DNA from: Gammaproteobacteria bacterium
GTDB lineage: Bacteria; Pseudomonadota; Gammaproteobacteria; Ga0077536
Reading direction: 5' to 3'
DNA length: 64,000 bases
Assembly: GCA_038116745.1 (NCBI GenBank)
Contig: JAYODW010000003.1
Coordinates: 64,274 to 128,273, forward strand
Both the position numbers and the translations under genes were made by a program. This document shows, piece after piece, positions 34,826 through 64,000 of this stretch. The notes beneath the pieces were generated by a model. That model did no database searches. It was not told where the DNA came from and worked only from the letters and a program-made list of their open reading frames with translations. The first letter of the stretch is position 1, and the number at the start of each line of letters is the position of its first letter.

Positions 34826-36100
34826 TTGAACCCAGGCGCACTGCTGAAACACCCGCTGCTTGTCGCAGGACTGGTCGCGGTCGTCATCGCCCTAGTGATG
34901 TTTCGTCCGCGTGCCGCGGATGAGTCGCCAATCCGGATCGGGATCCTGCACTCGCTGACCGGCGCCATGGCGATAAGTGAGCGCAGTATGGTCGACGCCG
35001 AGCTGCTGGCGGTCGAGGAAATCAATCGTGGTGGCGGTCTGCTCGGGCGACAGGTCGAGGCCGTTGTCGCTGATGGTCAGTCGGACTGGCCGACCTTTGC
35101 GCGAGAGGCAGAACGACTGATCTCGGAAGAGAAAGTGGTGACGGTGTTCGGCTGCTGGACGTCGGCCAGTCGAAAGACCGTGAAGCCGGTGTTTGAACAG
35201 CATGATCACCTGCTGGTTTACCCCATGGCCTACGAGGGCCTCGAACAATCTCGCAATATCGCCTACATCGGCGCCGCACCTAATCAGCAGGTCACGCCGG
35301 CCCTGACCTGGGGCGTCGAAAATCTGGGCAAGCGCGTGTTCCTGGTGGGTTCGGACTACGTGTGGCCGCGCACCATCAACGCGATCATGAAGGACATGCT
35401 GCCAAGCCTCGGCGCGGAGCTGGTCGGCGAGAGCTACGTGTTTTTCGGGAGCACGAAACTCGACCAGACCGTGGCAAAGATCAAGGCTGCCGCACCGGAC
35501 TTGGTCATCAGCTCAGTGGTGGGCGACAGCAATCCCGCGTTTTATCGTGCGCTGCGTGAAGCCGGCATCAGCGCTGAATCGACACCCGTTCTGACCTTCA
35601 GCATCGGTGAGTCGGAGCTGCTAGAGATGGATCCGCTGGATGTCAGCGGGCACTTTGCCGCCTGGAGCTATCTGCAGAGCCTGCCGGGGCAAACCAATCA
35701 GGAGTTCATCGCTCGATTCCGCGAGCGGTTTGGCGCTGAGCGGGTAACCAGCGACGTGATTGCTACCGCCTACAGCAGCGTCCTGCTGTGGGCACAGGCA
35801 GTGGAACAGGCGCAGAGCATCGAAGTCGATCAGATCCGTACTGCGCTGTACGGGCAGAGCATCGCAGCGCCGGAAGGGATCATTTCGGTGGATGCAGCGA
35901 CCGGGCATGCATGGCGCTCGATCTCGATCGGCCGAATCAATAAGTCGCGCGGTATCGATCAGGTATGGGCGCTGGAGCGACCCATTCGCCCGGTGCCTTT
36001 TCCCAGCAGCCGCACGCCGGCAGCCTGGCGCATGTACCTGGACCACCTGTATCAGGCCTGGGGCAACAGCTGGGCTAACCCGGAGGAGAGCGCGCTGTGA
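34826..36100 (+). CDS. Periplasmic ligand-binding protein of the LivK/UrtA/AmiC family (Peripla_BP_6)
   Basis: Signal/TM leader followed by [39 protein letters not shown], which is UrtA/AmiC-like. Probable TTG start. Its stop overlaps the next gene's GTG (GTGA). Confidence 0.7.
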
Positions 36101-45981: not shown

Positions 45982-47643
45982 ATGCGCAACGCGCAAAGTG
46001 GTTCGGCCGCGATGCCCGTCGGGGCTATAGCCCATGTCGATGTGGTCATCGTCGGCGCCGGTTTCGCCGGCCTGCAGGCACTCTATCGACTGCGCGAACA
46101 CGGTCTCAGCGTGCGTCTGCTCGAAGCGGGCGATGGGGTCGGCGGGACCTGGTTCTGGAATCGCTATCCCGGTGCACGGGTCGATTTCGAGAGCTTCGAG
46201 TACTCGTTCTCTTTTTCCAGCGAGCTCGAACAGGACTGGTGCTGGTCCGAGCGTTTTCCCGCCCAGCCCGAGCTGCAGCGCTATCTGGAACATGTCTGCG
46301 CACGCTTTGATCTGGCTCGCGACATACAGCTTGAAGCGCGAGTGCAGGAGGCGATATTCGACGCCGAGTCTTGCCGCTGGCGGCTCCGCACGGAAAACGA
46401 CGAAACGATTTCCTGCAGCTTCTGCATCATGGCCACCGGTCTGCTCTCTGCGCCCAGAGAGCCTGAATTTCGCGGACTTGAGGAGTTCCGTGGCGCGCGC
46501 TACCTCACGGCGCGCTGGCCGAAAGAATCCGTCGATTTCAGCGGGCTCCGGGTCGGGGTGATCGGGACCGGGTCGAGCGGCGTGCAGGTGATTGGTGCGC
46601 TGGCGCGGGAGGTTGAAGAACTGTTCGTGTTCCAGCGCACCGCGCCTTTCGTGGTGCCGGCTCATAACAGGCCGATGGACTCCGCGTACGAACGTGCGAT
46701 CAAGGCGCAGTACGCCACCCTGCGGCGCCACGAGTTCCTGTCCGAAACCGGGATAGGACTGCTCGATGGCGCAGTCGAGGCGTTGCCTTTGCCGCGTCAT
46801 GTCAGTGCGCTGGCGGTGGATGCGACGACACGTGAAGCGGAGTTCGAACGGCGCTGGCGGAACGGCTCGCTGTGTTTTCTGAACGCGTTCAACGATCTCA
46901 TTTTCGACCTCGAGGCTAACGAGACGCTGGCGGAGTTCCTGCGCGAAAAAATTCGCGCCCAGATCGATGACCCGGCTCTGGCGCAGAAGCTCCTGCCGCA
47001 GGGCTATCCGGTATTTTCGCGGCGACTCTCGGTCAGCGACGACTACTACGCGAGCTTCAACCGCGGCAACGTGACGCTGGTTGACCTCAACGAAACCCCT
47101 TTAACTCGTTTTACGCCTGGCGGGCTCACGGTGGGTAAGCGCGAGATAGCGCTCGATGCGGTGATCTTTGCAACCGGCTTCGATGCCCAGACCGGCGCGC
47201 TGACGCGGATTGATATCCAGGGACGCGACGGGTGCGAGCTGCGCAGCAGCTGGCAGCAGGGGCCGGATAATTACCTGGGACTCATGACCCCCTGCTTCCC
47301 GAATCTTTTCTATCTCTGCGGACCGGGTAGTCCGACCGCCTTTTACCCACCGATCCTGCTGGCTGAATATCAGACAGATTGGTTGATCAAGATCTTTGAT
47401 GCGATGAAAGCGCGCGGCAAGCGGACTATTGAGCCGCGAACCGCAGCGGCGCAACGCTGGCTGCATCATTCACGCGAGATGGCGAACGCGACAGTCTTTC
47501 CGCGCGGCCACTCGTGGTACATGGGCACGAACGTCGCCGGCAAACCGGTTGGCCTGCTTTCCTACATCGGCGGGTTTACGCAGTACCGCAGCTGGATGGA
47601 AGAAACCATCGCCGGTGGTCTGACAGACTTCGAAGTGGATTAG
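45982..47643 (+). CDS. Baeyer-Villiger-type flavin monooxygenase, paralog 3
   Basis: VVIVGAGFAG, GGTWFWNRYPGARVD, fingerprint FRGARYLTARWP (Leu in place of His), VIGTGSSGVQ. Confidence 0.8.
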   Translation: MRNAQSGSAAMPVGAIAHVDVVIVGAGFAGLQALYRLREHGLSVRLLEAGDGVGGTWFWNRYPGARVDFESFEYSFSFSSELEQDWCWSERFPAQPELQRYLEHVCARFDLARDIQLEARVQEAIFDAESCRWRLRTENDETISCSFCIMATGLLSAPREPEFRGLEEFRGARYLTARWPKESVDFSGLRVGVIGTGSSGVQVIGALAREVEELFVFQRTAPFVVPAHNRPMDSAYERAIKAQYATLRRHEFLSETGIGLLDGAVEALPLPRHVSALAVDATTREAEFERRWRNGSLCFLNAFNDLIFDLEANETLAEFLREKIRAQIDDPALAQKLLPQGYPVFSRRLSVSDDYYASFNRGNVTLVDLNETPLTRFTPGGLTVGKREIALDAVIFATGFDAQTGALTRIDIQGRDGCELRSSWQQGPDNYLGLMTPCFPNLFYLCGPGSPTAFYPPILLAEYQTDWLIKIFDAMKARGKRTIEPRTAAAQRWLHHSREMANATVFPRGHSWYMGTNVAGKPVGLLSYIGGFTQYRSWMEETIAGGLTDFEVD

Positions 47644-49969: not shown

Positions 49970-50881
49970 TCAGGTCGCGGTCTGATGCGAGCGAATCCAT
50001 TCGGCGGTGCTGATAGCGCCGCCAAAACCGAAGACGTGGATCCCGCTGACGTTGCCCAGACGACCCTGGGTACGCTGTGTGGCAATGGCTTCAACCAGCG
50101 GTCCCGGGTCGGTGTGCAGCGCCAGTCGTGCGATCCCTGTTCCCAGCTGGCTGAGCGCTCGGCGGCTGGCGCTCACCCCGCAGAGACGGGCATAGCGCAG
50201 AAGTTTGAGCGGATCCGTGGGTCCTGCAATGCCGACCTGCAGGCCCAGAGTGGGAAACGCCCGTGCGAGGCTTGCGCAGTAGGCGAGCACCCGCTGGGGT
50301 GAAAAACAGAACTGCGTGACGATGAAGGGTTTGATGCCCTGAGCCTCGAGATACTGCACCTTGAGTTCCAGAGTCTGCATCGCCTGGCCCGGGTTGAGAT
50401 GCGGGTGCCCTTCCGGAAAGCCGGCCAGTCCAGCCTGGACGATACCGTGATCACGCAGCAGGTCGTCGCGCAGAAAGCTTGAGCAATCTTTATATGGCCC
50501 GTCGCTGGCGATGATGTCACCGGCAATTAACAGGATCTGCTCTACTCGTGCCGCTTCATGAAGCCGCGACAAAAATTCGGTCGCATCAGCGCGCGAGGCG
50601 AGGCGACGCGCCGCGATGTGCGGGACAGGATTGAAACCGGCGGTGCGAACCCGCTCCGCTGCTTTCACGAGCTCCGCGCTGCTCGTACCTTCCGGCGAAG
50701 GGATAAAGATCGACGTGCCTGGCGCGAGATGGTCGCGAAGCTTCGGGAGCTCGAACAGTGCGCGGGGCAGCAGCTCCAGTGACCAGGGGCCGCTGCTGCC
50801 CGGCCGGCCACTCGGTTCTGCATGCTGCGACGCCGGAGATGGCGCTTCAGGTACGTTTTCGCGAAATGACATAAGACTCAT
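49970..50881 (-). CDS. metF: Methylenetetrahydrofolate reductase (MetF family)
   Basis: Pattern-level match to MetF (LSLELLPR for SFEFFPP, PHIAA for PHLTC, LIAGD for ALRGD, TQFCFS for TQFFFD). Start at ATG 50881 or 50872, just downstream of the upstream gene's stop. Confidence 0.65.
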   Translation of the reverse strand: MSLMSFRENVPEAPSPASQHAEPSGRPGSSGPWSLELLPRALFELPKLRDHLAPGTSIFIPSPEGTSSAELVKAAERVRTAGFNPVPHIAARRLASRADATEFLSRLHEAARVEQILLIAGDIIASDGPYKDCSSFLRDDLLRDHGIVQAGLAGFPEGHPHLNPGQAMQTLELKVQYLEAQGIKPFIVTQFCFSPQRVLAYCASLARAFPTLGLQVGIAGPTDPLKLLRYARLCGVSASRRALSQLGTGIARLALHTDPGPLVEAIATQRTQGRLGNVSGIHVFGFGGAISTAEWIRSHQTAT

Positions 50882-52250
50882 CCAGAAACCAGAGGCTGCC
50901 GCAGCGCTGGAGTATTTCGCTGGTAGCGTCCAGATAACTACGGTCGCCAACCACCTGAGCGAGACGTTCGTCCTCAATTTGAGCAACGTAGGTTGCTGCG
51001 TTCCATGCGGCGAACAGGGTTGAGGTTCCGATGCTCTCTGAGATCTCGGTTGGCAGGGTGTGCATGTCGTAGCGGAAGATCGCACGTGAGTCGGCATAAG
51101 CGTTGAAATTGAAATCCCGTGCGTCTCGTCCCAGCGCTCTTCTTACAGCGCGCAGCAGGTCGTGGCGGCTGGTGGTAAAGGGATCTTCACCCGGCCAGAT
51201 CTGCCGGACTATTTCCATGCCCGGATCGTTGCCGCAGGAATGGATTCCGAGCAGACGCCCCCCGGGGCCGAGCGCGCGTGTGAGCGGTGAGATGACCCGC
51301 TCTGCCTTGAAATCGAGCGATACCCGCGCGCGGTAAGGCTGCGAGGCGATGATCAGGTCAAAACCGGCGGTCGCGCCGGCCTGCCTAGGGATGACGTCGT
51401 GCAGCAGAAACTGGTAATCGCGGCGGTAAATCACGAGCACGACCGGGCTTTCGTAGACCGGATTACCGGATACCGGACTGGGCCGGGCCTGCCAGGCTTT
51501 GGCGAGAAACGGCTCGAGTTCCTCGATCTGCTCTGCGAACTGGTGCGCGGTATCCCCTTCCAGAGCAAGTTCCTTCCACACCATAGCGGTGGCTGCACTC
51601 AGCGAGCGCGGCGTCAGCCATGGTGCTTCCGTGTAGTACATGTTGGTCACAACCAGAACCGTGGCCGGGTGTTCCGATAGGCGATCGGCCATTTTCTGCA
51701 AGGACAGGCGGACGTCTTCGAGGCTGATCTCCTTGCCCACGATATAGAACGGCAGGGTCGGCAGGCGCCTGTGCATTTCCCGCATCACGCTATCGAGCAC
51801 GCTGCCATCGCCCATGCCGGCATCGAAAAGACGCAGCGCGGGCGGTCGGGGATGAAGATGGGAGATCTCCAGGCCGACGCGCCTGGCGACGACGGCTTTC
51901 TCGCTGCAGGTGTTGACGAACAGGAGGTACTTCTGTCGGTTATCGAAGAAGCGGAAATTCTGCGAGCGGGAGCGCTGATCGGGCAGAGGTTGCGGCGGTT
52001 CGGAAGCGGCGCCGACGTCAATGAGCTCTGAAAGTTCGTGCGCAGCCGGGGCGGCCGGTGCGGCGCCGTGGCGGGCGAGATACTGGTTCAGTCGCGCCAG
52101 AGTAGCCGGCGTGATTCGCGCGCCATCACGGAGTCGGCCGACGAATTTACCGTCGTTGACCGCCTGGCGACCGAAGGTTGTCTCTGCGACCCCTCGTTGC
52201 CGGCAGAAATCGGCGATTGTCTGCAGCAGGTTGGCGGCTCGTTCCCCCAC
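50847..52250 (-). CDS. Class I SAM-methyltransferase-like protein with a ~110-aa N-terminal extension and a long C-terminal extension
   Basis: Motif-I-like LRLFDAGMGDGSVL and a second glycine-rich segment. GTG start with a GAGGAGG RBS. The function is unclear. Confidence 0.4.
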   Translation of the reverse strand: MGERAANLLQTIADFCRQRGVAETTFGRQAVNDGKFVGRLRDGARITPATLARLNQYLARHGAAPAAPAAHELSELIDVGAASEPPQPLPDQRSRSQNFRFFDNRQKYLLFVNTCSEKAVVARRVGLEISHLHPRPPALRLFDAGMGDGSVLDSVMREMHRRLPTLPFYIVGKEISLEDVRLSLQKMADRLSEHPATVLVVTNMYYTEAPWLTPRSLSAATAMVWKELALEGDTAHQFAEQIEELEPFLAKAWQARPSPVSGNPVYESPVVLVIYRRDYQFLLHDVIPRQAGATAGFDLIIASQPYRARVSLDFKAERVISPLTRALGPGGRLLGIHSCGNDPGMEIVRQIWPGEDPFTTSRHDLLRAVRRALGRDARDFNFNAYADSRAIFRYDMHTLPTEISESIGTSTLFAAWNAATYVAQIEDERLAQVVGDRSYLDATSEILQRCGSLWFLDESYVISRKRT

Positions 52251-52416: not shown

Positions 52417-54081
52417 CTATCCCCGATGCACTGAGAAGTGCGCGTAGCCGTCAGCTTCGCCCGCCGTGCACTGCTGCCGGTAGTTTTCCAGGCCGCCAAG
52501 ATAGGACAGCAGCGCGCGGGGTTTGCCAGGAATATTGGCGCCCACGTACCAGCTGTTGGCTTTGAACAGCAGACTGCCTTCACCCACCTCGTGCATGTGC
52601 TGCATCCAACCCTCTTCGGCCTCGACAGTAGCTTCAATGACCGTCTCTTCCGCGAAACCCAGGTGCTCGAGACAGCGGTCTATCCATTCCACCTGGTATT
52701 CCGACAACAGCATCGGGCTGACCAGAGCGCCATTGGCGCAGGGCCCGTCGAGAAAAAACAGGTTGGGGAAGCCGACGCTGGCCAGGCCGAGGTAGGCGCG
52801 TGGGGCGCCGGTCCAGTGGTCGTTCAAATCGTGGCCGTTCTTACCCAGCACCTCTATCTGGCTGATCGCGCCGGTGACCGCATCGAATCCTGTCGCGAAC
52901 ACGATGCTGTCGACAGCGTACTCTTCGCCCCGCACGACGAGTCCCGCAGCCGTTAGTTTTTCGATCGGCGAATCTTTGATGGAGATCAGAGTGACGTTAT
53001 CCCTGTTGTAGGTCTCGTAATAGTTAGTGTCTGCGCACAGGCGTTTTGCCATGATGGGATAGCCGCGCGGCAGCAGCATCTCTGCGACCTCGGGATCGTT
53101 AACCCGCGCGCGCGTTTTTTCGCGCACGAAGTCGGCGAGCGTGTCGTTTGCTGCCTGATTGGTCAGCAGATCGATGAACGACGCGTAAAAACACAGGCCG
53201 CCCGACTGCCAGCGGTTTTCATAATCCGCCAGGCGATCCGCACTGCTGACGGCGAGGGCGCTGTTGTCGTTGGAGAGTGTTGGCTGATTGTTGACCGCGA
53301 TGAACCCTACGCGGGATTCGTAGCGTTGCAGCCGCCGCCATTCCGGGTACATGGCTTTGACGCGGGCTTCGAATTCAGGGTCCAGCGGACCGTTGCGCAG
53401 CGGGATAGAAAACGGTGGTGTGCGCTGGAAGACGAACAGGTGGTCCACCTGTTGCGCAATGATCGGAATGGCCTGGACCGCCGACGAGCCTGTGCCGATG
53501 ACGGCAACTCGCTGTCCGCTGAAATCAACGCCCCCCTCCGGCCAGCGCGAAGTCAGGTATTTGTTCCCGGCATAGTCATCGAGGCCTGCAAAATCAGGGA
53601 TGTTGCCTGAGGAAAGAAAGCCCGTGGCGAGGATGCAGTATTTCGCCCTGACGGTTTCTCCGGACGTGGTTTCGACCTGCCAGTCCCGTGAGGCTTCCTG
53701 ATACCGAGCCGCTGTAACCCGGGTGTTGAGCTGTATGTTCGGCCACAGATTGAAGCGTTCAGCGCAGTGGTTGATGTAACGCTGCAGCTCCGGTTGGCCC
53801 GCGTAGCGCTCGCTCCATGACCATTCCTGCTGCAGGGCTTCGTCGAAAGAGTAGGAATATTCCATGCTCTCGACATCCACCCGCGCGCCGGGATAGCGGT
53901 TCCAGAACCAGGTGCCGCCGATCCCGCTGCCCGCTTCGAACAGGCGGACGCGCAGTCCGCGTTGCTGCATTCGATGCAGCATGTAAAGGCCCGCAAAACC
54001 CGCGCCTACGATGAGCACGTCCAGTTGCTGCTGGTCACAGGAGGTGCTGACAGTCTGTGAACTTGTGCGTGCCTGACTCAT
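52417..54081 (-). CDS. Baeyer-Villiger-type flavin monooxygenase, paralog 4
   Basis: VLIVGAGFAG, GGTWFWNRYPGARVD, fingerprint YAGNKYLTSRWP (Leu in place of His), VIGTGSSAVQ. AAGGAGA RBS. Confidence 0.8.
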   Translation of the reverse strand: MSQARTSSQTVSTSCDQQQLDVLIVGAGFAGLYMLHRMQQRGLRVRLFEAGSGIGGTWFWNRYPGARVDVESMEYSYSFDEALQQEWSWSERYAGQPELQRYINHCAERFNLWPNIQLNTRVTAARYQEASRDWQVETTSGETVRAKYCILATGFLSSGNIPDFAGLDDYAGNKYLTSRWPEGGVDFSGQRVAVIGTGSSAVQAIPIIAQQVDHLFVFQRTPPFSIPLRNGPLDPEFEARVKAMYPEWRRLQRYESRVGFIAVNNQPTLSNDNSALAVSSADRLADYENRWQSGGLCFYASFIDLLTNQAANDTLADFVREKTRARVNDPEVAEMLLPRGYPIMAKRLCADTNYYETYNRDNVTLISIKDSPIEKLTAAGLVVRGEEYAVDSIVFATGFDAVTGAISQIEVLGKNGHDLNDHWTGAPRAYLGLASVGFPNLFFLDGPCANGALVSPMLLSEYQVEWIDRCLEHLGFAEETVIEATVEAEEGWMQHMHEVGEGSLLFKANSWYVGANIPGKPRALLSYLGGLENYRQQCTAGEADGYAHFSVHRG

Positions 54082-55883: not shown

Positions 55884-56510
55884 ATGTCTACTATGCTCTA
55901 CATTGAAGCGTCACCCCGTGGTGAGCGTTCTCATTCAGTCAAAGTGGCTGAGCAATTTCTCAGCGCTTACGCGGCCGCGAATGCAGGCGACACGATAGAC
56001 CGCTTGAATCTGTGGGCAGAAGACCTGCCCCAGTTCGACGGGGATATGCTGAATGCGAAGTACCGCATCATGCACGGCACGGATCCGTCTGCGGCAGAGA
56101 AGTCGGCGTGGGGAACTGTGGAGACACTGTTCGCCCGCTTCAATCAGGCGGACAAGTATCTTTTCTCGGTTCCGATGTGGAATTTCGGTCTGCCTTACCG
56201 ACTGAAGCAATACATCGATGTGATCACCCAGCCGGGGCTCGCATGGAGCTTTTCTCCAGACAGTGGCTACAGCGGCCTGGTCACCGGCAAAGCCGCGGTG
56301 GTCTATGCCAGTGCAGGTGTGTATCACGCAGGCAGCGGTGCAGAAGCGTTCGATCTGCAGAAGCCCGCCTTCGAAGGCTGGCTCGGGTTTATCGGGATCA
56401 CCGACGTCAGTCGTCTGATTGTTGCCCCGACGCTGGGAGCGCCGGACGACGTCGCGGCGGCGGAAGCAACGGCTGCCGAACAGGCGCGGACTCTCGCGGC
56501 GACGTTCTGA
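55884..56510 (+). CDS. azoR: FMN-dependent NADH-azoreductase (AzoR family)
   Basis: Flavodoxin-like N-terminus (MSTMLYIEASPRGERSHS). 208 aa. Confidence 0.75.
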   Translation: MSTMLYIEASPRGERSHSVKVAEQFLSAYAAANAGDTIDRLNLWAEDLPQFDGDMLNAKYRIMHGTDPSAAEKSAWGTVETLFARFNQADKYLFSVPMWNFGLPYRLKQYIDVITQPGLAWSFSPDSGYSGLVTGKAAVVYASAGVYHAGSGAEAFDLQKPAFEGWLGFIGITDVSRLIVAPTLGAPDDVAAAEATAAEQARTLAATF

Positions 56511-56568
56511 CTCTAATGAATGCTCGTTTCCTAGGGCGCAAGCAGGCGACAGCAGACTGAAGTCTGAG

Positions 56569-57270
56569 ATGGGACTTTCATCTCAGGAACTGATCGGACG
56601 CGCGCATGAGCTGACGCCGATGCTGGCAAGGAGCGCGCTTGAGACCGAACGGAATCGAGCGCTTCCGGATGCGATCGTCGAAGCGCTGGTTGATGCGGAA
56701 CTGCTCGCTACCCTCGTGCCAAAAGTCTACGGCGGGCACGAGCTGCCGGTGTCGACCATGGCTGAAATTGTGCGCGTGCTCAGTTCGGCGTGTCCCTCGA
56801 CCGGATGGGTCTCTGCGTTTTACCAGGGGGCCGGCTGGAGGCTGCTTGCTTTTCCTGAGCGGGCGCAGCGCGAGGTGTTCAGTAAGCCTTACGTCCTTTC
56901 CGCCGGACAGGCGGCGCCTTTAATAGAGGCCGTGCGGGTCTCCGGGGGCTATCGGATCTCGGGTCAGACCCCATGGGGTTCGGGTTCCTCCCACGCGGAG
57001 TGGATCTTGTTCATGGGCGCAGTCGAGCAGGCGAACGGAGCGGTGCATCCCCGGATGTTCCTGGTACCACGTACGGAGACGACACTGGTCGACACCTGGT
57101 TTGCGGCCGGTATGCGCGGCACCGCCGGCAATGACCTACGGGTCGACGAGGTGTTCGTGCCGGAGCATCGGTCGACGTCTTTTGTTGCTGCGCTGAACGG
57201 CGAAGCCGAGGGTATGGCGTTGCATCCGAACCCGATGTACCACCGCCCATTTGTGCCGTTTCTATTCTGA
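56569..57270 (+). CDS. N-terminal ~233 codons of an ACAD-fold (HpaH/DszC-like) flavin monooxygenase or acyl-CoA-dehydrogenase-type gene, terminated by an in-frame TGA
   Basis: ACAD N-terminal and middle domains. The frame is identical to the downstream fragment. The TGA at 57268-57270 is the only interruption. Confidence 0.5.
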   Translation: MGLSSQELIGRAHELTPMLARSALETERNRALPDAIVEALVDAELLATLVPKVYGGHELPVSTMAEIVRVLSSACPSTGWVSAFYQGAGWRLLAFPERAQREVFSKPYVLSAGQAAPLIEAVRVSGGYRISGQTPWGSGSSHAEWILFMGAVEQANGAVHPRMFLVPRTETTLVDTWFAAGMRGTAGNDLRVDEVFVPEHRSTSFVAALNGEAEGMALHPNPMYHRPFVPFLF

Positions 57271-57273
57271 GAA

Positions 57274-57729
57274 GTGGTGCCGGTTCTGGTAGGCGCACTG
57301 CGCGGGGCAGCGGAATCCTTCGTACAGCGCGTTCAAGGCCGGCAAGGGACCATCAGTGGACAGCGCGCAAGGGACAAGCCCGCCTCGCAGATGCGTCTCG
57401 CGCGCGGTCTGGCAGCGGCCGATGCAGCCGAAGTGCTCTTGCAGGCCTACCTGGCGCGGTTTGAGTCCGACGAGCCTGACCAGAGCACTGTCGCCAGTCG
57501 GGTGGCAATGAAGCTGCAGGCCTCGTTTCTGAGCGATTTCTGCCGCAACGCGGTCAATGAACTGGCGCGTGGTTTTGGCGCGGACGGCTTTCGGGACGCT
57601 AGCCCGCTGCAGAGGTATTTCCGCGATCTGAACATGCTTGCTGTGCATGCTTTTCTGGATATCGAGACGGCCGCGGAAACCGCTGGACGGCTGGCTCTGG
57701 GACTTCAGCCTGAGGACCCGATTATCTGA
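57274..57729 (+). CDS. C-terminal helical domain of the same ACAD-fold protein (continues in frame after the TGA)
   Basis: ACAD C-terminal four-helix region. No RBS or start of its own other than the GTG at 57274. Confidence 0.5.
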   Translation: MVPVLVGALRGAAESFVQRVQGRQGTISGQRARDKPASQMRLARGLAAADAAEVLLQAYLARFESDEPDQSTVASRVAMKLQASFLSDFCRNAVNELARGFGADGFRDASPLQRYFRDLNMLAVHAFLDIETAAETAGRLALGLQPEDPII

Positions 57730-57768: not shown

Positions 57769-57844
57769 TGGCGCCCTGAGCAGGATTCGAACCTGCGACC
57801 TACCGCTTAGGAGGCGGTCGCTCTATCCCCTGAGCTACCAGGGC
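57769..57844 (-). tRNA. tRNA-Arg (anticodon CCT)
   Basis: Folded by eye as a cloverleaf: acceptor GCCCTGG/TCAGGGC, D arm GCTC-AGGGGATA-GAGC, anticodon arm ACCGC-CTCCTAA-GCGGT, T arm GCAGG-TTCGAAT-CCTGC, discriminator G and an encoded CCA. 76 nt. Confidence 0.85.
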
Positions 57845-59570: not shown

Positions 59571-59855
59571 GTGATGCGCGGTGTTTTGACGGTACTTTCA
59601 CTGGCAGCGGAGTGGTCTCCGCGGCCGCAGATTATAGAGAGCTCAGCCCGCACATAGGTGGACAGCGAGTCTTGGCGTTCTTTCGCTTGGAATCATATGA
59701 TTAACGTTCGAACTTAGAGTGTTGCGGCACTTTAGGTCGCGGGGATGGAATGAGGCTTCACACGTCTGATCATTTTTGTCTCAAGCTCCGACCGACTATC
59801 CGGGCGAGAAAAAAGCTCTGGTTAACGAGGGTCCTGCAGCGGAAGCGCGCATTGA

Positions 59856-62800
59856 GTGATGGCTAACGGCAACGATCAACCTCAAGGTGCGTCCAGACGC
59901 AAATTCACGCGCATTCCTGTCAATCTTCCAGGTTACGTGCGGGTCGGCGGGAACACACCCGTGGCCTGCACGGTCCGCGACTATTGCCCGGGCGGCATGT
60001 TCATTGCCCCCGATTCCGGTTCGTTCGCTGATCTGGCAACCCCAGCGAAGGCGGAGCTGCTCTTCGCGCTTATCGTTGATGGAGAACAGCGCGACCTGAG
60101 TTTGAATCTCATGGTGGTCCGCGCAGCCGATCAGGGCATGGGTGTGTCCTTCGTCGAGCCGGACCCGTTAGTGCTGGAGACTCTGCGACAGCTTGCGGAC
60201 AGCGTCAGTCATGCGGATGCCGCGACAGGTAACAGCACGGCTCTCGATGGCACGCTGAGTGGCTTTGCACCGGAACATGCTGCACTGAGAGAGCCGCTTA
60301 AGCAGGCGGTCGAAGCGCCGCTGACAGGTCTTGGCGAGCGCTTTTTCAAGCAGGCCTGCGACGCCCTGTTCGTCGCTGCGAGGGACGCGGGGAGTAACGT
60401 CGAGGAGCGGCGATTCCTGGATGCCCAACGTCAGATGCTGGCGCTGAGTGCCGGGGTAAAAACGCAGTTCATTCCGGACCTCCAGGGTGGTGTTGAGATT
60501 CTTGGGAATCCTGTCGCGAGGACTGAACAATCCTCGGGTCTGTCGCTGGAGTCCGGCGGACTCTCTCTCATCGATAAGGGTGATTTCGAGGACTTTTTGG
60601 CAATTTCCGAAGCAGCGGCAGAACTGGAGGCCCGGTTCAAAGACGCGTTGTTTGATCTGGGCGCACGGCTATCGCATCTGGCCAAACGTGAGGTCACCTT
60701 AAGTAATAATCCTCTTGGCCCCAGCGCGCTATGCAATCTGCTGGCTGGATTGTTCAAAGAGCTTGACGCAGACCATCGGGTAAAAACGATGGTCTACCGG
60801 GAGCTCAAAGGCACGCTCCACGCTGAACTCGGGGCGATTTACGAGCAGCTGAACCGCTTTCTTGCGGGGCAGGGAATACTGCCCGATGTCGTCAAAGAGC
60901 AGCCTGACTATCGGCCGAGACCGTCAGCTGACGTTGGTTTCGGCGTTTCCGGAAACGCGCGGTCACGTCGACCTGAGGCAAATGCGTTTGCTGAGGAGGC
61001 GCTTGATGACCTCATGCCCGGCCCTGAGAACTATGATGGCAGCGCGGTTCCGGCATCTCTGGAACCGGCTGATTTCGTCGCGCCTTCCGCCTCTGTCAGG
61101 GCGGTGCGGCCGGCCGCGCCTCCAGGGGCACAACCGCTTTCTTCGGGGTCATCGGTGACCGCTGAACCGCCGCTGTCTGAACGTCCAAGCGCAGCCGCTG
61201 AACCGTCAGTGGCAAGCTGGGGCAGGACGCCGGTGAATGCGCTTGCGCGCACTGCGCCCAGAGTCCACTCAGCAGTGCAGGCGCAGCTTGCGCTGCGGCG
61301 TCAGATACGCGAACAGCCGCAGGGTCCCGTTCTGGCTGCAGCTGCAGAATCAAGCCTGGGCGGCGTTAGCGAGGGTGCAGGTCAGCGCGCCATTGCGCGC
61401 GTCTCTGCGGGCTTGCTGAATGTCCAGCGCAACATCGGCGCCGATGCTTCATCTGGCGATGAAGAGCACATAGACAGCCTGGTCCAGGCGGCGCTCGCGC
61501 AGGCAGATCCAGCCGACGAAGCATTGAATGCTGATGATGCCGATGCCATGGAGGTAGTCGGGAACCTGTTCTCCGCGATGATGGACGATGAGCTGGTCGC
61601 CACGTCTGCCAAAGCGCAGCTCGCCCAGCTTCGGCCGGCTTCGCATCGTGCCGCGCTGCTCGACCCTGAATTCTTCGCCTCCAACCAGCATCCTGTGCGA
61701 CAGGTCATCAATCGCGTGTCCCGAGTCCGTGGAGGAAACAGCCCCGAGCAGATCGAACGCCGCGCCCGTGTTCAAGGTCTTCTGGAACAGGTGAATAAAG
61801 ACTTCGTCGACGATGTGCGGGTGTTCGAGCCAGTGTCCGCAGCGCTTGATGCAGTTCTGTTGGAACAGGAAAACGCTTTTCAGGATCGCCTGTCAGACAT
61901 CGTTCGGTCCTGTGATGAACAGCAGCGCATCCTGGATAACCGACGCGTTGTCGGGAATGTTGACGCTCAGGCCGCCGATGCAGAGAAAGCCGATACCCCG
62001 GAAGAGTGGCACAAGTGGCTCGAGCGTGCGGACCGACTCAAGGTCGGCGACCGCGTCATCATCAACGCCAAGAGTCCTCGTGCAACTCCCGGGCAGGTGG
62101 CCTGGAAGGAAGCGACGGGGAAGCTTTTTGTATTCGTCGATGATGCGGGCAACAAGGCGAGCACGCTGACGCGGCAACAGGTTGCCATGTACCTGCGACG
62201 CGGCCTCCTGCGCGTTCTTGGCGAGAGTGCCGATGCGCCTGGCGTCGATCGCGCCATGCTGAGTGTTGTTGATCGGGTACATAAGCAGGTCGAATCCGAC
62301 GCTACCAAGGATCCGCTGAGCGGTTATCTGGCGCGGCGCTTTTTCGAGGAGGCGGTGGAGAAACATATTCAGGACGCGGACCCCGCCGCGGGCAAAAATC
62401 TCGCGATGTGTTATGTGTCGCTCGAGAATCTGCGCGACGTGAATGACAAGATGAGCGAGTCTGTGGGCGACTCGCTGCTCAAAGAGTTTGCAGAGGAATT
62501 GACGCAGCGACTTGCTGAAGAACCGGTGATCTGTGGCCGACTGAGCGGCTCCATCCTGGCGCTGTTCTGGAAAAGCGGAGGGACGGCAGCGGCGCACAAG
62601 AAGCTGCGCGCCAGCGTCGAGATGCTTCGAGAACTGAGCGTCGGGGTGCCTTATGAGGCTATGGACGAAGGGGAGCTTGCGCACGCTGAAAGTGAAACTC
62701 AGGAAATCGATCATCGGCGGGTCAGTCCCGTTTTTGTGATTGGAATTGCCGGCAGCGAAGATAATGCTGTTGACGCCGAAGGCCTGATCAGCGCTGCTCG

Positions 62801-63626
62801 AGAGGCTTGTGACCACGCACGCGAGAGCGCCGCGGAGCCTCCCATCCACGTCAGCGGCTCCGAGAGCGAGCAGCGCGCACAACTTGAGCGCATGGTTGCG
62901 TATGCTGATAAAGCGCTGGAGAAAGACCGTCTTACGCTATCCGGCCAGAAGATTTCCAGCCTGACCGACGAACGTCTGCCGCCCGCATTGTCGATGACGC
63001 TGGGGGCTGTGGATCGGTCGCGGAGAAAGATCCCAGAGAAGCTGATAACCCCGGCGCTGAAACGTTGCAGCCAGCTTGCTGCCTACGACCGATGGGCGTT
63101 GCATCGTGCGTTTGAGTGGGTGCTGGCGAATGAAGAACTGGCGGAGCGCTACGCCATGTTTGTGCTGCCACTCTCTCGCGCTGCCATTGAAAATGAGGAG
63201 CTGCCGAACGAACTTATCGGTGAGTTCATGGAGTCACCCGTTCAGCCAGGTCAGGTTTGTTTCAGCCTCCCCGATCAGGCGGTGGTCGATAACCAGTCTC
63301 TGGTTTCGGATCTGGTGGACGCTCTCAAAGCCTATGGCTGTCGTTTCATTCTGGAAGATTTCGGCAGCGGCCACGACAGCTATGACTACATCAAGAGCAT
63401 AGATATCGACTTCGTGGAAATTCGCACAAGCTTCATCGAGGATGCGGACAAGAACCCTAAAGACCTGGCCATGGCGAAATCAATCAATGAACTCGCCCAT
63501 TTCCTGGGGAAGAAAACCATCGGGCGTCAGCATCTGGGTAAAGACCTCGCAGAGACGATGCGGGCGATTGGCATCGACTTCATGCACCAGCAAGCCGGAC
63601 AGGTCGAGATCGTGAAGCGAACATGA
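59856..63626 (+). CDS. Large c-di-GMP-related protein: N-terminal PilZ domain, ~700-aa uncharacterised Ala-rich middle region, degenerate GGDEF domain and EAL domain with degenerate motif
   Basis: PilZ motifs RRKFTRIP and DYCPGGMF. The GGDEF-fold region has GRLSGS in place of GGDEF. The EAL-fold region has EDFGSG (the DDFGTG position) but PAL in place of EAL. Confidence 0.65.
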   Translation: MMANGNDQPQGASRRKFTRIPVNLPGYVRVGGNTPVACTVRDYCPGGMFIAPDSGSFADLATPAKAELLFALIVDGEQRDLSLNLMVVRAADQGMGVSFVEPDPLVLETLRQLADSVSHADAATGNSTALDGTLSGFAPEHAALREPLKQAVEAPLTGLGERFFKQACDALFVAARDAGSNVEERRFLDAQRQMLALSAGVKTQFIPDLQGGVEILGNPVARTEQSSGLSLESGGLSLIDKGDFEDFLAISEAAAELEARFKDALFDLGARLSHLAKREVTLSNNPLGPSALCNLLAGLFKELDADHRVKTMVYRELKGTLHAELGAIYEQLNRFLAGQGILPDVVKEQPDYRPRPSADVGFGVSGNARSRRPEANAFAEEALDDLMPGPENYDGSAVPASLEPADFVAPSASVRAVRPAAPPGAQPLSSGSSVTAEPPLSERPSAAAEPSVASWGRTPVNALARTAPRVHSAVQAQLALRRQIREQPQGPVLAAAAESSLGGVSEGAGQRAIARVSAGLLNVQRNIGADASSGDEEHIDSLVQAALAQADPADEALNADDADAMEVVGNLFSAMMDDELVATSAKAQLAQLRPASHRAALLDPEFFASNQHPVRQVINRVSRVRGGNSPEQIERRARVQGLLEQVNKDFVDDVRVFEPVSAALDAVLLEQENAFQDRLSDIVRSCDEQQRILDNRRVVGNVDAQAADAEKADTPEEWHKWLERADRLKVGDRVIINAKSPRATPGQVAWKEATGKLFVFVDDAGNKASTLTRQQVAMYLRRGLLRVLGESADAPGVDRAMLSVVDRVHKQVESDATKDPLSGYLARRFFEEAVEKHIQDADPAAGKNLAMCYVSLENLRDVNDKMSESVGDSLLKEFAEELTQRLAEEPVICGRLSGSILALFWKSGGTAAAHKKLRASVEMLRELSVGVPYEAMDEGELAHAESETQEIDHRRVSPVFVIGIAGSEDNAVDAEGLISAAREACDHARESAAEPPIHVSGSESEQRAQLERMVAYADKALEKDRLTLSGQKISSLTDERLPPALSMTLGAVDRSRRKIPEKLITPALKRCSQLAAYDRWALHRAFEWVLANEELAERYAMFVLPLSRAAIENEELPNELIGEFMESPVQPGQVCFSLPDQAVVDNQSLVSDLVDALKAYGCRFILEDFGSGHDSYDYIKSIDIDFVEIRTSFIEDADKNPKDLAMAKSINELAHFLGKKTIGRQHLGKDLAETMRAIGIDFMHQQAGQVEIVKRT

Positions 63627-63636
63627 GCAAAGAGCA

Positions 63637-64000
63637 TGCTTGATACGCCAGAAAAGATCGGGAAATACGAGATTACCGAGGTCATCGGCAAAGGCTCGAT
63701 GGGGGTGGTTTATAAAGGTCACGACAGCTACGTCGATCGCACGGTGGCGATTAAGGTTGCGACCAATGCAGATGCAGATGCAGATGCCCAGAGCGTGGCC
63801 AAGCGACTCTTCATCAACGAGACCCGGTCGGTCGGCCGTCTGGATCACCCCAACATATTGAAAGTCTACGAGGCGGGAGAGGACCAGGGCCTGCCGTACA
63901 TGGTGATGGAGTATGTGAGTGGCGGCGATACGCTGCGCGCTTATTGCAAGGCGCCCAAGCTTCTGCCGATCAAGCGCGTCTGTGAACTGATTCAGCAGGT
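63637..64000 (+). CDS. Hanks-type serine/threonine protein kinase (3'-truncated by the window edge)
   Basis: Gly-rich loop IGKGSMGVVYKG and VAIKV lysine motif. It begins 10 nt after the stop of the preceding gene. Confidence 0.8.

What the first reader, a model, noticed from the sequence alone, without database searches (positions are those of the whole stretch)
59856..64000. 1256-aa protein combining PilZ with degenerate GGDEF and EAL domains, co-transcribed with a Ser/Thr kinase
The N-terminus has both PilZ c-di-GMP-binding motifs (RRKFTRIP, DYCPGGMF). The C-terminal third has GGDEF and EAL folds whose catalytic motifs are altered (GRLSGS in place of GGDEF; PAL in place of EAL while EDFGSG is retained). 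In between lies a ~700-aa Ala/Leu-rich region I cannot assign to a family. The layout resembles a FimX-like c-di-GMP receptor with an added PilZ domain. A Hanks kinase gene begins 10 nt downstream, suggesting a coupled c-di-GMP and phosphorylation signalling module.
Basis: partly seen in the sequence, partly recalled or inferred. Interest (0 to 1): 0.6.

Follow-up and report, generated by a model that had tools for sequence, protein, structure and literature searches.

The report
Dead-enzyme c-di-GMP sensor paired with kinase
This gene encodes a large signalling protein that probably still senses the bacterial messenger c-di-GMP but has lost both of its enzyme activities, and in related bacteria it is always found next to a cyclic-nucleotide-binding protein kinase that probably switches it by phosphorylation.

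Summary
Window 59859-63626 (+) encodes a 1255-aa protein with a PilZ domain, a degenerate GGDEF and a degenerate EAL domain. A Hanks kinase gene starts 9 nt downstream.

Two corrections:
- The unassigned middle region is DUF1631 (PF07793, E 2.6e-82), the PacR-type family of unknown mechanism.
- The EAL-motif equivalent is SMT, not PAL. Only 1 of 9 catalytic-core residues survives.

New findings:
- The architecture defines a large uncharacterised family, with at least 145 representatives at 50% identity.
- The PilZ motifs RxxxR and [D/N]xCxxG are nearly invariant across it.
- A clade holding half the family sits next to a 407-435-aa kinase with a C-terminal cNMP-binding domain. This was true in 15 of 15 loci examined, with differing flanks and orientation.
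- That clade has largely lost EAL and GGDEF catalytic residues. The other half keeps them and had no kinase in 13 of 13 loci.
- Residue T769 is Ser/Thr in all 15 kinase-linked genes. It is Asp/Glu in 9 of 13 unlinked ones and in five stand-alone DUF1631 proteins. Four blind predictions from this residue were all correct.

Best reading: a c-di-GMP-sensing pseudoenzyme scaffold gated by a cNMP-regulated kinase. This is a new variant of a known kind, and the biochemistry is untested.

The parts
59859..63626 (+). Gene for the 1255-aa PilZ-DUF1631-GGDEF*-EAL* protein. A GTG at 59856 is an alternative start.
   Evidence: ORF. Domains. A 97%-identical protein P0001 has the same start.
59895..60212 (+). 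PilZ domain (residues 13-118): a beta-barrel plus a C-terminal helix
   Evidence: Pfam PilZ 31.7 bits. The AF2 model has strands at 19-98 and a helix at 103-118, with pLDDT about 73-87. Foldseek matches the PilZ domains of BcsA, Alg44, MapZ and PA0012 with probability 1.0 and TM up to 0.83.
59898..59912 (+). RxxxR c-di-GMP-binding motif (R14-K-F-T-R18)
   Evidence: R14 is kept in 128 of 129 and R18 in 132 of 132 aligned family members.
59979..59996 (+). Second PilZ motif D41-Y-C43-P-G-G46, a [D/N]xCxxG variant of [D/N]xSxxG
   Evidence: D/N41 in 141 of 141 members. C43 in 127, with Ser in 10. G46 in 139 of 141.
60270..60869 (+). DUF1631 N-terminal helical region (residues 138-337)
   Evidence: Pfam PF07793. 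Partial PacR NF058594 match at residues 147-357. AF2 helices with pLDDT mostly 74-89.
60900..61238 (+). Ala/Pro/Ser-rich linker, predicted disordered (residues about 348-460). Its length varies between homologues.
   Evidence: pLDDT below 50 over residues 348-505. Composition A23 P19 S15. Large length variation in alignment A1.
61239..62033 (+). DUF1631 second helical region (residues 461-725; PF26671 DUF1631_2nd in the precomputed annotation)
   Evidence: Invariant residues include H611, P612 and F605/F606.
62052..62258 (+). DUF1631_C small beta-domain plus helix (residues 732-800). This is the most conserved part of the family.
   Evidence: PF26670 annotation on P0001. AF2 strands at 732-771 and a helix at 772-781. 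The invariant block V758-F-V-D..G764.K766.STLT..QVAMYL.RG is.
62160..62171 (+). Candidate phospho-acceptor patch S768-T769-L-T771
   Evidence: Residue 769 is S/T in 15 of 15 kinase-linked genes and D/E in 9 of 13 unlinked ones. It ranks first of 1255 positions for this pattern. Stand-alone DUF1631 proteins have E/D there. Four of four blind predictions were correct.
62274..62858 (+). Degenerate GGDEF domain (residues about 806-1000). The motif SGSIL lies at residues 896-900 (nt 62544-62558).
   Evidence: Pfam GGDEF 43.6 bits. Alignment to RbdA. Motif table. Confident fold, with model pLDDT 89.
62913..63584 (+). Degenerate EAL domain (residues 1019-1242). The EAL-motif equivalent SMT lies at residues 1045-1047 (nt 62991-62999).
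   Evidence: Pfam EAL 90 bits. Alignment to RbdA. One of 9 catalytic-core residues is kept. The fold matches RbdA, LapD, MorA and FimX.
63627..63635 (+). 9-nt spacer between the two genes, with no terminator-like site
   Evidence: Orthologous pairs overlap by 4 nt in L003 and L006 and abut in L008.
63636..64000 (+). 5' part (121 codons) of the partner Hanks Ser/Thr kinase gene. In the sister strain the full protein is 428 aa with a C-terminal cNMP-binding domain.
   Evidence: Pkinase 57 bits. 119 of 121 residues are identical to the L005 kinase. The full L005 protein has Pkinase plus cNMP_binding.
59672..59701 (+). Promoter-like site in the 288-nt glnS-divergent intergenic region. The evidence is weak.
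   Evidence: One consensus match against 0.9 expected by chance. No Rfam element was found in the leader.

Best explanation
**What it is.** The gene encodes a soluble pseudoenzyme. It belongs to a large, uncharacterised family with the architecture PilZ-DUF1631-GGDEF-EAL.

**Proposed mechanism**
1. c-di-GMP binds the N-terminal PilZ domain. This is inferred from the near-invariant RxxxR and [D/N]xCxxG motifs.
2. The signal passes to the helical DUF1631 core and its small C-terminal beta-domain.
3. The C-terminal GGDEF and EAL domains are folded but catalytically dead. They neither make nor break c-di-GMP. They most likely serve as a LapD-like dimerisation or docking platform.
4. The protein works as an obligate pair with the co-transcribed Hanks kinase, whose C-terminal cyclic-nucleotide-binding domain senses cAMP or cGMP.
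5. The kinase most likely phosphorylates the S768/T769/T771 patch of the DUF1631_C domain. The phosphate would restore the negative charge that kinase-independent relatives carry permanently as Glu or Asp. DUF1631 output would then need both the c-di-GMP and the cNMP signal.
6. The downstream output is unknown. By analogy with PacR it would be motility, biofilm or adaptation control.

**Shown here:** the domain content, the loss of catalytic residues, the conservation of the gene pair, and the covariation of residue 769 with the kinase.

**Inferred:** ligand binding, the phosphorylation event and its site, and the output.
For: **Domains and folds**

**Loss of catalysis**
- The GGDEF motif is SGSIL, both metal-binding Asp are lost, and there is no I-site.
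- One of 9 EAL core residues is kept.

**PilZ conservation**
- Across 146 sequences at 22-97% identity: R14 in 128 of 129, R18 in 132 of 132, D/N41 in 141 of 141, C43 in 127 and G46 in 139 of 141.

**Kinase partner**
- A Pkinase plus cNMP_binding gene is adjacent in the window and in L001-L003, L006-L010, L013-L016, L094 and L095.
- The pair persists where flanking genes differ (L007, L010, L013, L095) and where the orientation is divergent (L010, L016).
- The genes overlap by 4 nt in L003 and L006.
- The kinase has an intact G-loop, VAIK, HRD, DFG and SPE.
- Orthologues have a canonical FGE...R[ST]A phosphate-binding cassette.
- Class III cyclase genes lie next to the pair in L007, L010 and L095.

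**Family structure**
- The kinase-linked genes fall in one clade of 80 of the 159 sequences in the tree. That clade contains none of the 11 unlinked genes placed in the tree.
- Inside the clade the EAL core is intact in 19 of 80 and GGDEF in 2 of 80. Outside it the figures are 78 of 79 and 27 of 79.

**Residue 769**
- It is S/T in all 15 linked genes. It is D/E in 9 of 13 unlinked genes and S/T in only 1 of those 13. It ranks first of 1255 positions for this contrast.
- Five of the six stand-alone DUF1631 proteins compared, including the Stenotrophomonas PacR-type ones, have E/D there; the sixth aligned ambiguously.
- Four blind predictions from residue 769 were correct: P0045 and P0104 have a kinase, P0153 and P0124 do not.

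**Other DUF1631 links**
- A separate DUF1631-PP2C phosphatase fusion exists (P0023).
- PacR, a DUF1631 protein, has a published genetic link to c-di-GMP-related phenotypes (PMC9543026).
Against: - No biochemistry exists for any family member.
- The kinase-linked genes form essentially one clade. The residue-769/kinase correlation may therefore reflect a single ancestral event, so it is not statistically independent. Within that clade 12 of 80 representatives lack S/T at 769.
- One unlinked gene (L017) has Ser at 769, and 20 of 79 sequences outside the clade have S/T.
- T769 sits in a predicted beta-strand. Its surface exposure could not be checked.
- The PilZ motif has Cys where c-di-GMP-binding PilZ domains have Ser, and the Pfam score is modest (31.7 bits).
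- In the window's own lineage the kinase's phosphate-binding cassette reads ARAF instead of R[ST]A. Cyclic-nucleotide binding there is uncertain. That domain also lies outside the window and is inferred from a contig 95.9% identical in DNA.
- The output of DUF1631 is unknown.
Confidence: 0.5

Rival explanations
1. The direction is reversed. The PilZ-DUF1631 protein is an upstream c-di-GMP-dependent regulator or scaffold of the kinase, not its substrate. c-di-GMP-bound receptor would activate or inhibit the kinase, which then phosphorylates other cellular targets. The S/T769 pattern would be a clade-specific structural feature.
For: The conserved pairing fits either direction. The kinase-linked genes form one clade, so the residue-769 correlation could be inherited. 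Pseudo-GGDEF/EAL tandems such as LapD act by docking partner proteins (established knowledge; fold similarity).
Against: S and T interchange freely at residue 769, but other residues are rare there in the linked clade. The ancestral and out-group state is acidic. This is the pattern expected for a phospho-acceptor that evolved from an acidic residue. The two models do not exclude each other.
Confidence: 0.25
2. This is the first reader's model: a FimX/LapD-type receptor in which the degenerate EAL domain is the c-di-GMP-binding site, and the PilZ domain is accessory or binds a partner.
For: The GGDEF*-EAL* tandem folds confidently and superposes on LapD and FimX structures. The DFGSG loop and much of the EAL scaffold are retained.
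Against: Only 1 of 9 core positions survives. The replacements differ among close relatives (HPEDDETKY, FPEDGNSRH, RSEDGESKH, YPSDNEVRI, SPSDEDERH), so the old ligand pocket shows no constraint. The PilZ motifs, in contrast, are nearly invariant. There is no REC/PAS or HAMP input as in FimX or LapD.
Confidence: 0.12
3. The gene pair is not a functional unit. The kinase is an unrelated housekeeping or anti-phage (PD-T4-6-like) Ser/Thr kinase that merely sits downstream in a syntenic core-genome block.
For: The kinase scores up to 271 bits against PADLOC PD-T4-6 models. In most loci the whole block glnS / receptor / kinase / dagK / isocitrate-isopropylmalate dehydrogenase family / lexA is syntenic, so vertical inheritance alone could keep the neighbours together.
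Against: The PADLOC match covers only the generic catalytic domain, and the receptor has no PADLOC hit. The pair survives where the flanks are completely different (L007, L010, L013, L095) and where the orientation is inverted (L010, L016). The genes overlap by 4 nt in L003 and L006. The context is not a defence island.
Confidence: 0.05
4. The protein is still an enzyme, an active diguanylate cyclase and/or phosphodiesterase with unusual motifs.
For: Both Pfam domains score above their cut-offs. Most distant family members do keep a complete EAL core.
Against: GGDEF reads SGSIL and both metal-binding Asp are lost. In the EAL domain the metal ligands (E, N, E, D), the catalytic Lys and the general-base Glu are all replaced.
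Confidence: 0.02

Closest known systems
PacR / XC_3388 of Xanthomonas campestris and other stand-alone DUF1631 proteins (PF07793; NCBIfam NF058594)
   Same: They share the DUF1631 helical core and the C-terminal beta-domain (Pfam 277.9 bits; local alignments to P0017, P0022 and P0024). PacR is genetically tied to c-di-GMP-related phenotypes (PMC9543026).
   Different: PacR-type proteins are about 750-810 aa with no PilZ, GGDEF or EAL domain. They carry the DUF1631_3rd segment (PF26672), which this protein lacks, and have Glu at the residue-769 equivalent. The NCBIfam PacR score is 83 bits against a cut-off of 1200. Their mechanism is unknown.
LapD (Pseudomonas fluorescens, Vibrio cholerae) and FimX (P. 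aeruginosa, Xanthomonas): degenerate GGDEF-EAL c-di-GMP receptors
   Same: Both have a catalytically inactive GGDEF-EAL tandem used as a signalling platform. The predicted tandem superposes on apo LapD (3pjw TMq 0.61; 6pwj TMt 0.67-0.69), and the EAL domain superposes on FimX (TMt about 0.8).
   Different: Those receptors bind c-di-GMP in the EAL pocket and take HAMP or REC-PAS inputs (established knowledge). Here the pocket residues are replaced and unconstrained. The inputs are PilZ plus DUF1631, and the partner is a Ser/Thr kinase.
RbdA / PA0861 (PAS-GGDEF-EAL phosphodiesterase of P. aeruginosa)
   Same: It is the best solved-structure match by sequence and fold (5xgb E 8.2e-35; 5xge Foldseek E 1.6e-31).
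   Different: RbdA is an active phosphodiesterase with intact ELL, N, EVTE, DDF, KID and E...QG residues (alignment). This protein keeps only one of them.
EAL-intact half of the same family (for example the 'DUF1631 family protein' of Sulfuriflexus sp., WP_314161785.1, and Kangiellaceae MAG proteins)
   Same: They share the PilZ-DUF1631-GGDEF-EAL architecture and the PilZ motifs.
   Different: They keep 8-9 of 9 EAL core residues and often an intact GGDEF motif. They carry DUF1631_3rd, usually have D/E or another residue at 769, and have no adjacent kinase. They are probably real phosphodiesterases.
Bd1971 of Bdellovibrio (cNMP-binding domain fused to an EAL phosphodiesterase)
   Same: It is a known case of cAMP/cGMP to c-di-GMP cross-talk through a cNMP-binding domain. 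Its structures appear among the fold matches (6hq4, 6hq5, 6hq7).
   Different: In Bd1971 the cNMP domain is fused directly to an active EAL enzyme. Here it sits on a separate Hanks kinase, and the EAL domain is dead.

Membership tests
PilZ domain (PF07238), c-di-GMP-binding type | Six-stranded beta-barrel with a C-terminal helix, and an HMM score above the gathering threshold | tested here: met
   31.7 bits against a 22.5 cut-off. AF2 barrel at residues 19-98 plus a helix at 103-118. Foldseek probability 1.0 to Alg44, BcsA, MapZ and PA0012 PilZ domains.
PilZ domain (PF07238), c-di-GMP-binding type | RxxxR motif on the N-terminal arm | tested here: met
   R14-K-F-T-R18. Both Arg are nearly invariant in the family.
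PilZ domain (PF07238), c-di-GMP-binding type | [D/N]xSxxG motif | tested here: inconclusive
   The motif reads D41-Y-C43-P-G-G46. D and G are kept, but Ser is replaced by Cys in 127 of 141 family members. The effect on binding is unknown.
PilZ domain (PF07238), c-di-GMP-binding type | Actual binding of c-di-GMP | not testable with these tools
   This needs ITC, DRaCALA or MST on purified protein.
DUF1631 (PF07793) | HMM match above the gathering threshold | tested here: met
   277.9 bits against 33.7, E 2.6e-82, residues 140-694 plus a second stretch. The precomputed annotation on P0001 lists PF07793, PF26671 and PF26670.
PacR family proper (NCBIfam NF058594) | Full-length score at or above the curated cut-off (1200 bits) | tested here: not met
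   83.2 bits, covering only residues 147-357. The DUF1631_3rd segment (PF26672) is absent.
Diguanylate cyclase (active GGDEF domain) | GG[D/E]EF active-site motif and two metal-binding Asp | tested here: not met
   The motif is SGSIL, and the metal positions are S854 and E856.
Diguanylate cyclase (active GGDEF domain) | RxxD inhibitory site five residues upstream of the motif | tested here: not met
   The sequence there is A-E-E-P.
c-di-GMP phosphodiesterase (active EAL domain) | Catalytic core E(AL), N, E, E, D, D, K, E, Q | tested here: not met
   The core reads S, P, S, D, E, D, E, R, H, so 1 of 9 is kept.
FimX/LapD-type degenerate-EAL c-di-GMP receptor | Folded, inactive GGDEF-EAL tandem | tested here: met
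   Model pLDDT 89.2 and pTM 0.78. It matches LapD and FimX structures.
FimX/LapD-type degenerate-EAL c-di-GMP receptor | EAL pocket retains and conserves its c-di-GMP-contacting residues and binds the ligand | tested here: inconclusive
   The former pocket residues are replaced and differ between close relatives, which argues against this feature. FimX and LapD contact residues were not aligned directly, and binding cannot be tested here.
Hanks-type Ser/Thr kinase with a cNMP-binding domain (the partner gene) | Intact kinase catalytic motifs | tested here: met
   GKGSMG, VAIK, HRDIKPAN, DFG and SPE in the L005 orthologue, which is 119 of 121 residues identical over the window's fragment. Pkinase scores 175 bits in orthologues.
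Hanks-type Ser/Thr kinase with a cNMP-binding domain (the partner gene) | cNMP-binding domain with an FGE...R[ST]A phosphate-binding cassette | tested here: inconclusive
   PF00027 matches in every orthologue. The cassette is canonical in 12 of the 13 orthologues aligned. In the window's lineage it reads FGELEYLEATARAF: the Arg is kept but the next two residues are unusual. The domain itself lies beyond the window end.

The most novel reading that the evidence does not exclude
In half of the PilZ-DUF1631-GGDEF-EAL family, an ancestral and permanently acidic residue of the DUF1631_C domain was converted into a phospho-acceptor (S/T769). A dedicated cNMP-gated Hanks kinase was recruited at the same time. 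DUF1631 output thereby became a three-input switch responding to c-di-GMP through PilZ, to cAMP/cGMP through the kinase, and to phosphorylation. The EAL and GGDEF enzyme activities then became dispensable and decayed repeatedly. If true, this would give the first mechanistic handle on the DUF1631/PacR family. It would also be a clean bacterial example of a phosphosite evolving from an acidic residue.
Probability: 0.3. Interest if true: 0.75.

Novelty: new variant of a known kind. Interest (0 to 1): 0.55.

Why it matters
- DUF1631 proteins are widespread in Gammaproteobacteria. In Xanthomonas, PacR acts as a master regulator of adaptation and virulence, yet no molecular mechanism is known for the family (PMC9543026).
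- This locus ties DUF1631 physically to a c-di-GMP-binding domain. It also ties it, by conserved gene pairing, to a cyclic-nucleotide-binding Ser/Thr kinase.
- It points to one specific residue as the likely control point. That turns a domain of unknown function into a set of simple, testable experiments.
- It documents a natural series in which an active EAL phosphodiesterase family decays into pseudoenzymes once a kinase partner appears. This is useful for understanding how c-di-GMP receptors arise from enzymes.
- It suggests a direct node of cross-talk between three bacterial signalling currencies: c-di-GMP, cAMP/cGMP and Ser/Thr phosphorylation.

Tried and rejected
1. I first recalled that P. 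aeruginosa PA2989 was a DUF1631 protein with a PilZ domain. The papers show PA2989 is a tetramer-type PilZ protein, unrelated to DUF1631. I dropped the idea.
2. Word-indexed protein searches found only about 16 close relatives, and a profile query added nothing. The true family size emerged only from the exhaustive phmmer search.
3. The metagenome scan chose its patterns from the EAL domain. About 65 of its 80 loci were therefore generic GGDEF-EAL genes, and only about 17 were family members.
4. A sequence search of the first 800 residues against the PDB found nothing. Foldseek found nothing for the DUF1631 helical part, and only a weak Tudor-like hit for the small beta-domain. The AlphaFold-database library was unavailable.
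5. I looked for a riboswitch or other RNA element in the 288-nt leader and found none. The only Rfam hit in the window is a tRNA.
6. PADLOC was used to test a phage-defence reading. The receptor has no hit, and the kinase hits PD-T4-6 models only over its generic catalytic domain. I rejected this reading as uninformative.
7. I looked for a conserved alternative partner in kinase-less loci. The neighbours are unrelated housekeeping genes, except for a stand-alone GGDEF gene upstream in L021 and L023 and an MshEN ATPase in L012.
8. Searches for DUF1631, PF07793, XC_3388, PacR and kinase/cNMP/PilZ combinations found no paper on this architecture or gene pair.

Full report
**1. The observation**

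The window has one long ORF at 59856..63626 on the + strand. The ATG at 59859 gives a 1255-aa protein. The 97%-identical database protein P0001 starts at the same residue.

Pfam finds four domains, all above their curated cut-offs:

| Domain | Residues | Score |
|---|---|---|
| PilZ | 13-112 | 31.7 bits |
| DUF1631 | 140-694 plus a second stretch | 277.9 bits, E 2.6e-82 |
| GGDEF | 816-921 | 43.6 bits |
| EAL | 1019-1242 | 90 bits |

- NCBIfam also gives a partial PacR match of 83 bits, far below the 1200-bit cut-off.
- The next ORF starts at ATG 63636, nine bases after the stop. No terminator-like site lies between them.
- That ORF is a Hanks kinase, cut off by the window end after 121 codons.

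**2. Catalytic residues**

I used the HMMER alignment to the solved phosphodiesterase RbdA/PA0861.

- In the GGDEF domain, RLGGDEF aligns with RLSGSIL. The two metal-binding Asp are S854 and E856. The I-site position reads AEEP.
- The other core residues are also replaced: N to P, EVTE to SLPD, DDF to EDF, KID to EIR, the general-base E to R, and Q to H.
- One of nine core residues survives.
- Both domains still fold. An AlphaFold model of residues 791-1255 has mean pLDDT 89.2 and pTM 0.78.
- That model matches RbdA (E 1.6e-31), apo LapD (TMq 0.61; V. cholerae LapD TMt 0.67-0.69), MorA and FimX.
- The protein is therefore a folded double pseudoenzyme.

**3. The PilZ domain and the rest of the N-terminal part**

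- The model of residues 1-830 (mean pLDDT 64.7) shows a beta-barrel at 19-98 and a helix at 103-118.
- Foldseek matches only PilZ domains: Alg44, BcsA, MapZ and PA0012, with probability 1.0 and TM up to 0.83.
- The DUF1631 part forms two helical regions (138-337 and 461-725), separated by a disordered Ala/Pro/Ser-rich linker.
- A small beta-domain follows at 732-787. No solved structure resembles the helical part.
- No hydrophobic segment suggests a membrane span.

**4. The family**

- Word-indexed searches found only about 16 relatives.
- An exhaustive phmmer search of 1.84 billion representatives gave 506 hits at E <= 1e-30. The top 150 all scored at least 243 bits. Most were 1150-1350 aa with near-full-length alignments at 23-47% identity.
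- I aligned the query with 145 of them.
- The PilZ motifs are almost invariant: R14 in 128 of 129, R18 in 132 of 132, D/N41 in 141 of 141, C43 in 127 (Ser in 10) and G46 in 139 of 141.
- The hallmark is RxxxR plus [D/N]xCxxG, with Cys in place of the canonical Ser.
- 88 of 146 members keep at least 8 of 9 EAL core residues, and 24 also keep GG[D/E]EF.
- The window's relatives at about 30% identity or more have 0-2 of 9 core residues, and their replacements differ from one another.
- The only source names found are 'DUF1631 family protein' (Sulfuriflexus sp.), 'hypothetical protein' (Kangiellaceae MAG) and generic GGDEF/EAL labels.
- Close relatives come from uncultured Gammaproteobacteria MAGs.

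**5. The kinase partner**

A contig that is 95.9% identical in DNA (L005) supplies the full downstream gene.

- The full protein is 428 aa, a Pkinase domain plus a C-terminal cNMP-binding domain. It is followed by a convergent dagK gene.
- Its catalytic motifs are intact.
- The same Pkinase plus cNMP_binding gene, 407-435 aa and 45-65% identical, lies beside the family gene in L001-L003, L006-L010, L013-L016, L094 and L095.
- That is 15 distinct loci counting the window.
- The usual upstream neighbour is a divergent glnS. The pair persists where the flanks are quite different (L007, L010, L013, L095).
- It also persists in two loci where the kinase is divergent rather than downstream (L010, L016).
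- In L003 and L006 the two genes overlap by 4 nt.
- Class III nucleotide cyclase genes sit next to the pair in L007, L010 and L095.
- Of the 13 kinase orthologues aligned, 12 have a canonical FGE...R[ST]A cassette. The window's lineage reads ARAF.
- Thirteen other family loci have no kinase within the retrieved flanks (L012, L017-L021, L023, L024, L038, L047, L062, L096/97, L098/99). Their neighbours are unrelated.

**6. Structure of the family**

I built a neighbour-joining tree of 159 sequences.

| | Clade holding all 15 kinase-linked genes (80 sequences) | Rest of the tree (79 sequences) |
|---|---|---|
| Unlinked genes placed in the tree (11) | 0 | 11 |
| EAL core intact (at least 8 of 9) | 19 | 78 |
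| EAL core nearly erased (2 or fewer of 9) | 35 | 0 |
| GGDEF motif intact | 2 | 27 |

- Gaining the kinase partner therefore coincides with relaxed selection on enzyme activity.
- Unlinked members also carry the DUF1631_3rd segment (PF26672). The linked ones lack it.

**7. A candidate control residue**

I compared 13 linked genes with 11 unlinked genes at every position of the protein.

- Residue 769 ranked first of 1255 for 'Ser/Thr in linked, Asp/Glu in unlinked'. It lies in the motif G764-N-K-A-S-T769-L-T of the DUF1631_C domain.
- Five of the six stand-alone DUF1631 proteins compared also have Glu or Asp there. They include the Stenotrophomonas PacR-type ones and a DUF1631-PP2C phosphatase fusion. 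The sixth (P0026) aligned ambiguously.
- I then made four predictions from this residue alone. P0045 (Thr) and P0104 (Ser) should have the kinase. P0153 (Glu) and P0124 (Asp) should not. All four were correct.
- The totals are S/T in 15 of 15 linked genes, and D/E in 9 of 13 and S/T in 1 of 13 unlinked genes.
- The linked genes form one clade, so these counts are not independent events. In that clade 12 of 80 representatives lack S/T769.
- Free Ser/Thr interchange over sequences as low as 25% identical, against an acidic ancestral state, is the pattern expected of a phospho-acceptor that replaced a fixed negative charge. That general principle is from my own knowledge (Pearlman et al., Cell 2011).

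**8. Most likely mechanism**

- c-di-GMP is sensed by the PilZ domain.
- cAMP or cGMP is sensed by the kinase.
- The kinase phosphorylates the S768/T769/T771 patch and so gates the DUF1631 output.
- The dead GGDEF-EAL tandem serves as a LapD-like platform.
- Shown: the architecture, the loss of catalysis, the conserved pairing and the covariation.
- Inferred: ligand binding, the phosphorylation and its site, and the output.
- The main rival is the reverse direction, in which the receptor controls the kinase. The two may both be true.
- An enzymatic role is excluded by the residues. A defence-kinase or chance-neighbour reading is contradicted by the context (and section 5).

**9. Comparison with the known, and novelty**

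- The protein is a member of Pfam DUF1631 but not of the PacR family proper.
- It works somewhat like LapD or FimX, as a pseudo-GGDEF/EAL receptor, but differs in sensor domain, input and partner.
- The only functional paper on DUF1631 reports pleiotropic, c-di-GMP-linked phenotypes for PacR and states that the mechanism is unknown (PMC9543026).
- No paper found describes this architecture or the kinase pairing.
- I rate it a new variant of a known kind. The interest is moderate and comes mainly from the testable kinase-DUF1631 link.

Noticed in passing
window 56419-57729 (+), stop codon at 57268-57270: An acyl-CoA dehydrogenase-like gene is interrupted by a single in-frame TGA. The N-terminal domain lies in the first ORF and the C-terminal domain in the second, both in the same frame. 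It could be a pseudogene, a sequencing error or a read-through codon.
   Followed up: partly
window 59979-59996 (residue C43) and family alignment: The canonical Ser of the PilZ [D/N]xSxxG motif is Cys in 127 of 141 family members. Such strong conservation of a Cys at a ligand-contact position could mean redox-sensitive c-di-GMP binding.
   Followed up: partly
window 21350-24676 (+): A second, canonical c-di-GMP protein of 1108 aa. It has several PAS domains plus GGDEF (144 bits) and EAL (151 bits), so it is probably enzymatically active.
   Followed up: partly
window 36097-38469 (+): A 790-aa chemoreceptor (HAMP plus MCPsignal) with an unusual N-terminal BLH_phosphatase-like domain.
   Followed up: no
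window 57769-57844 (-): tRNA-Arg(CCT) lies between the acyl-CoA dehydrogenase-like gene and glnS.
   Followed up: yes
window 45982-47643 (+) and 52417-54081 (-): Two paralogous flavin monooxygenase-like genes (553 and 554 aa) flank a block that includes an amidohydrolase gene and two ORFs without Pfam hits (49970-51097 and 50847-52250).
   Followed up: no
protein P0023 (1131 aa): A stand-alone-type DUF1631 protein fused to a PP2C Ser/Thr phosphatase domain. This is a second, independent link between DUF1631 and Ser/Thr phospho-signalling. Its residue-769 equivalent is Asp.
   Followed up: partly
L096 14165-15376 (+): A PP2C phosphatase with a cNMP-binding domain lies 4.6 kb downstream of a kinase-less family member that has Glu at residue 769.
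   Followed up: no
homologues P0002-P0009, linker region (alignment A1 columns about 420-640): The disordered linker of close homologues holds tandem copies of a unit of about 17 residues, (Y)xVQGAxPSxPAGG. The window protein has only a short, non-repetitive version.
   Followed up: no
L007, L010 and L095 (flanks of the gene pair): Class III nucleotide cyclase genes (HAMP-PAS-, GAF-PAS- or FHA-linked) sit directly beside the receptor-kinase pair in three loci. They could supply the cNMP sensed by the kinase.
   Followed up: partly
L021 5193-6266 and L023 7449-8549: In two kinase-less loci a stand-alone GGDEF gene (357 and 366 aa) lies immediately upstream of the family gene on the same strand.
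   Followed up: no
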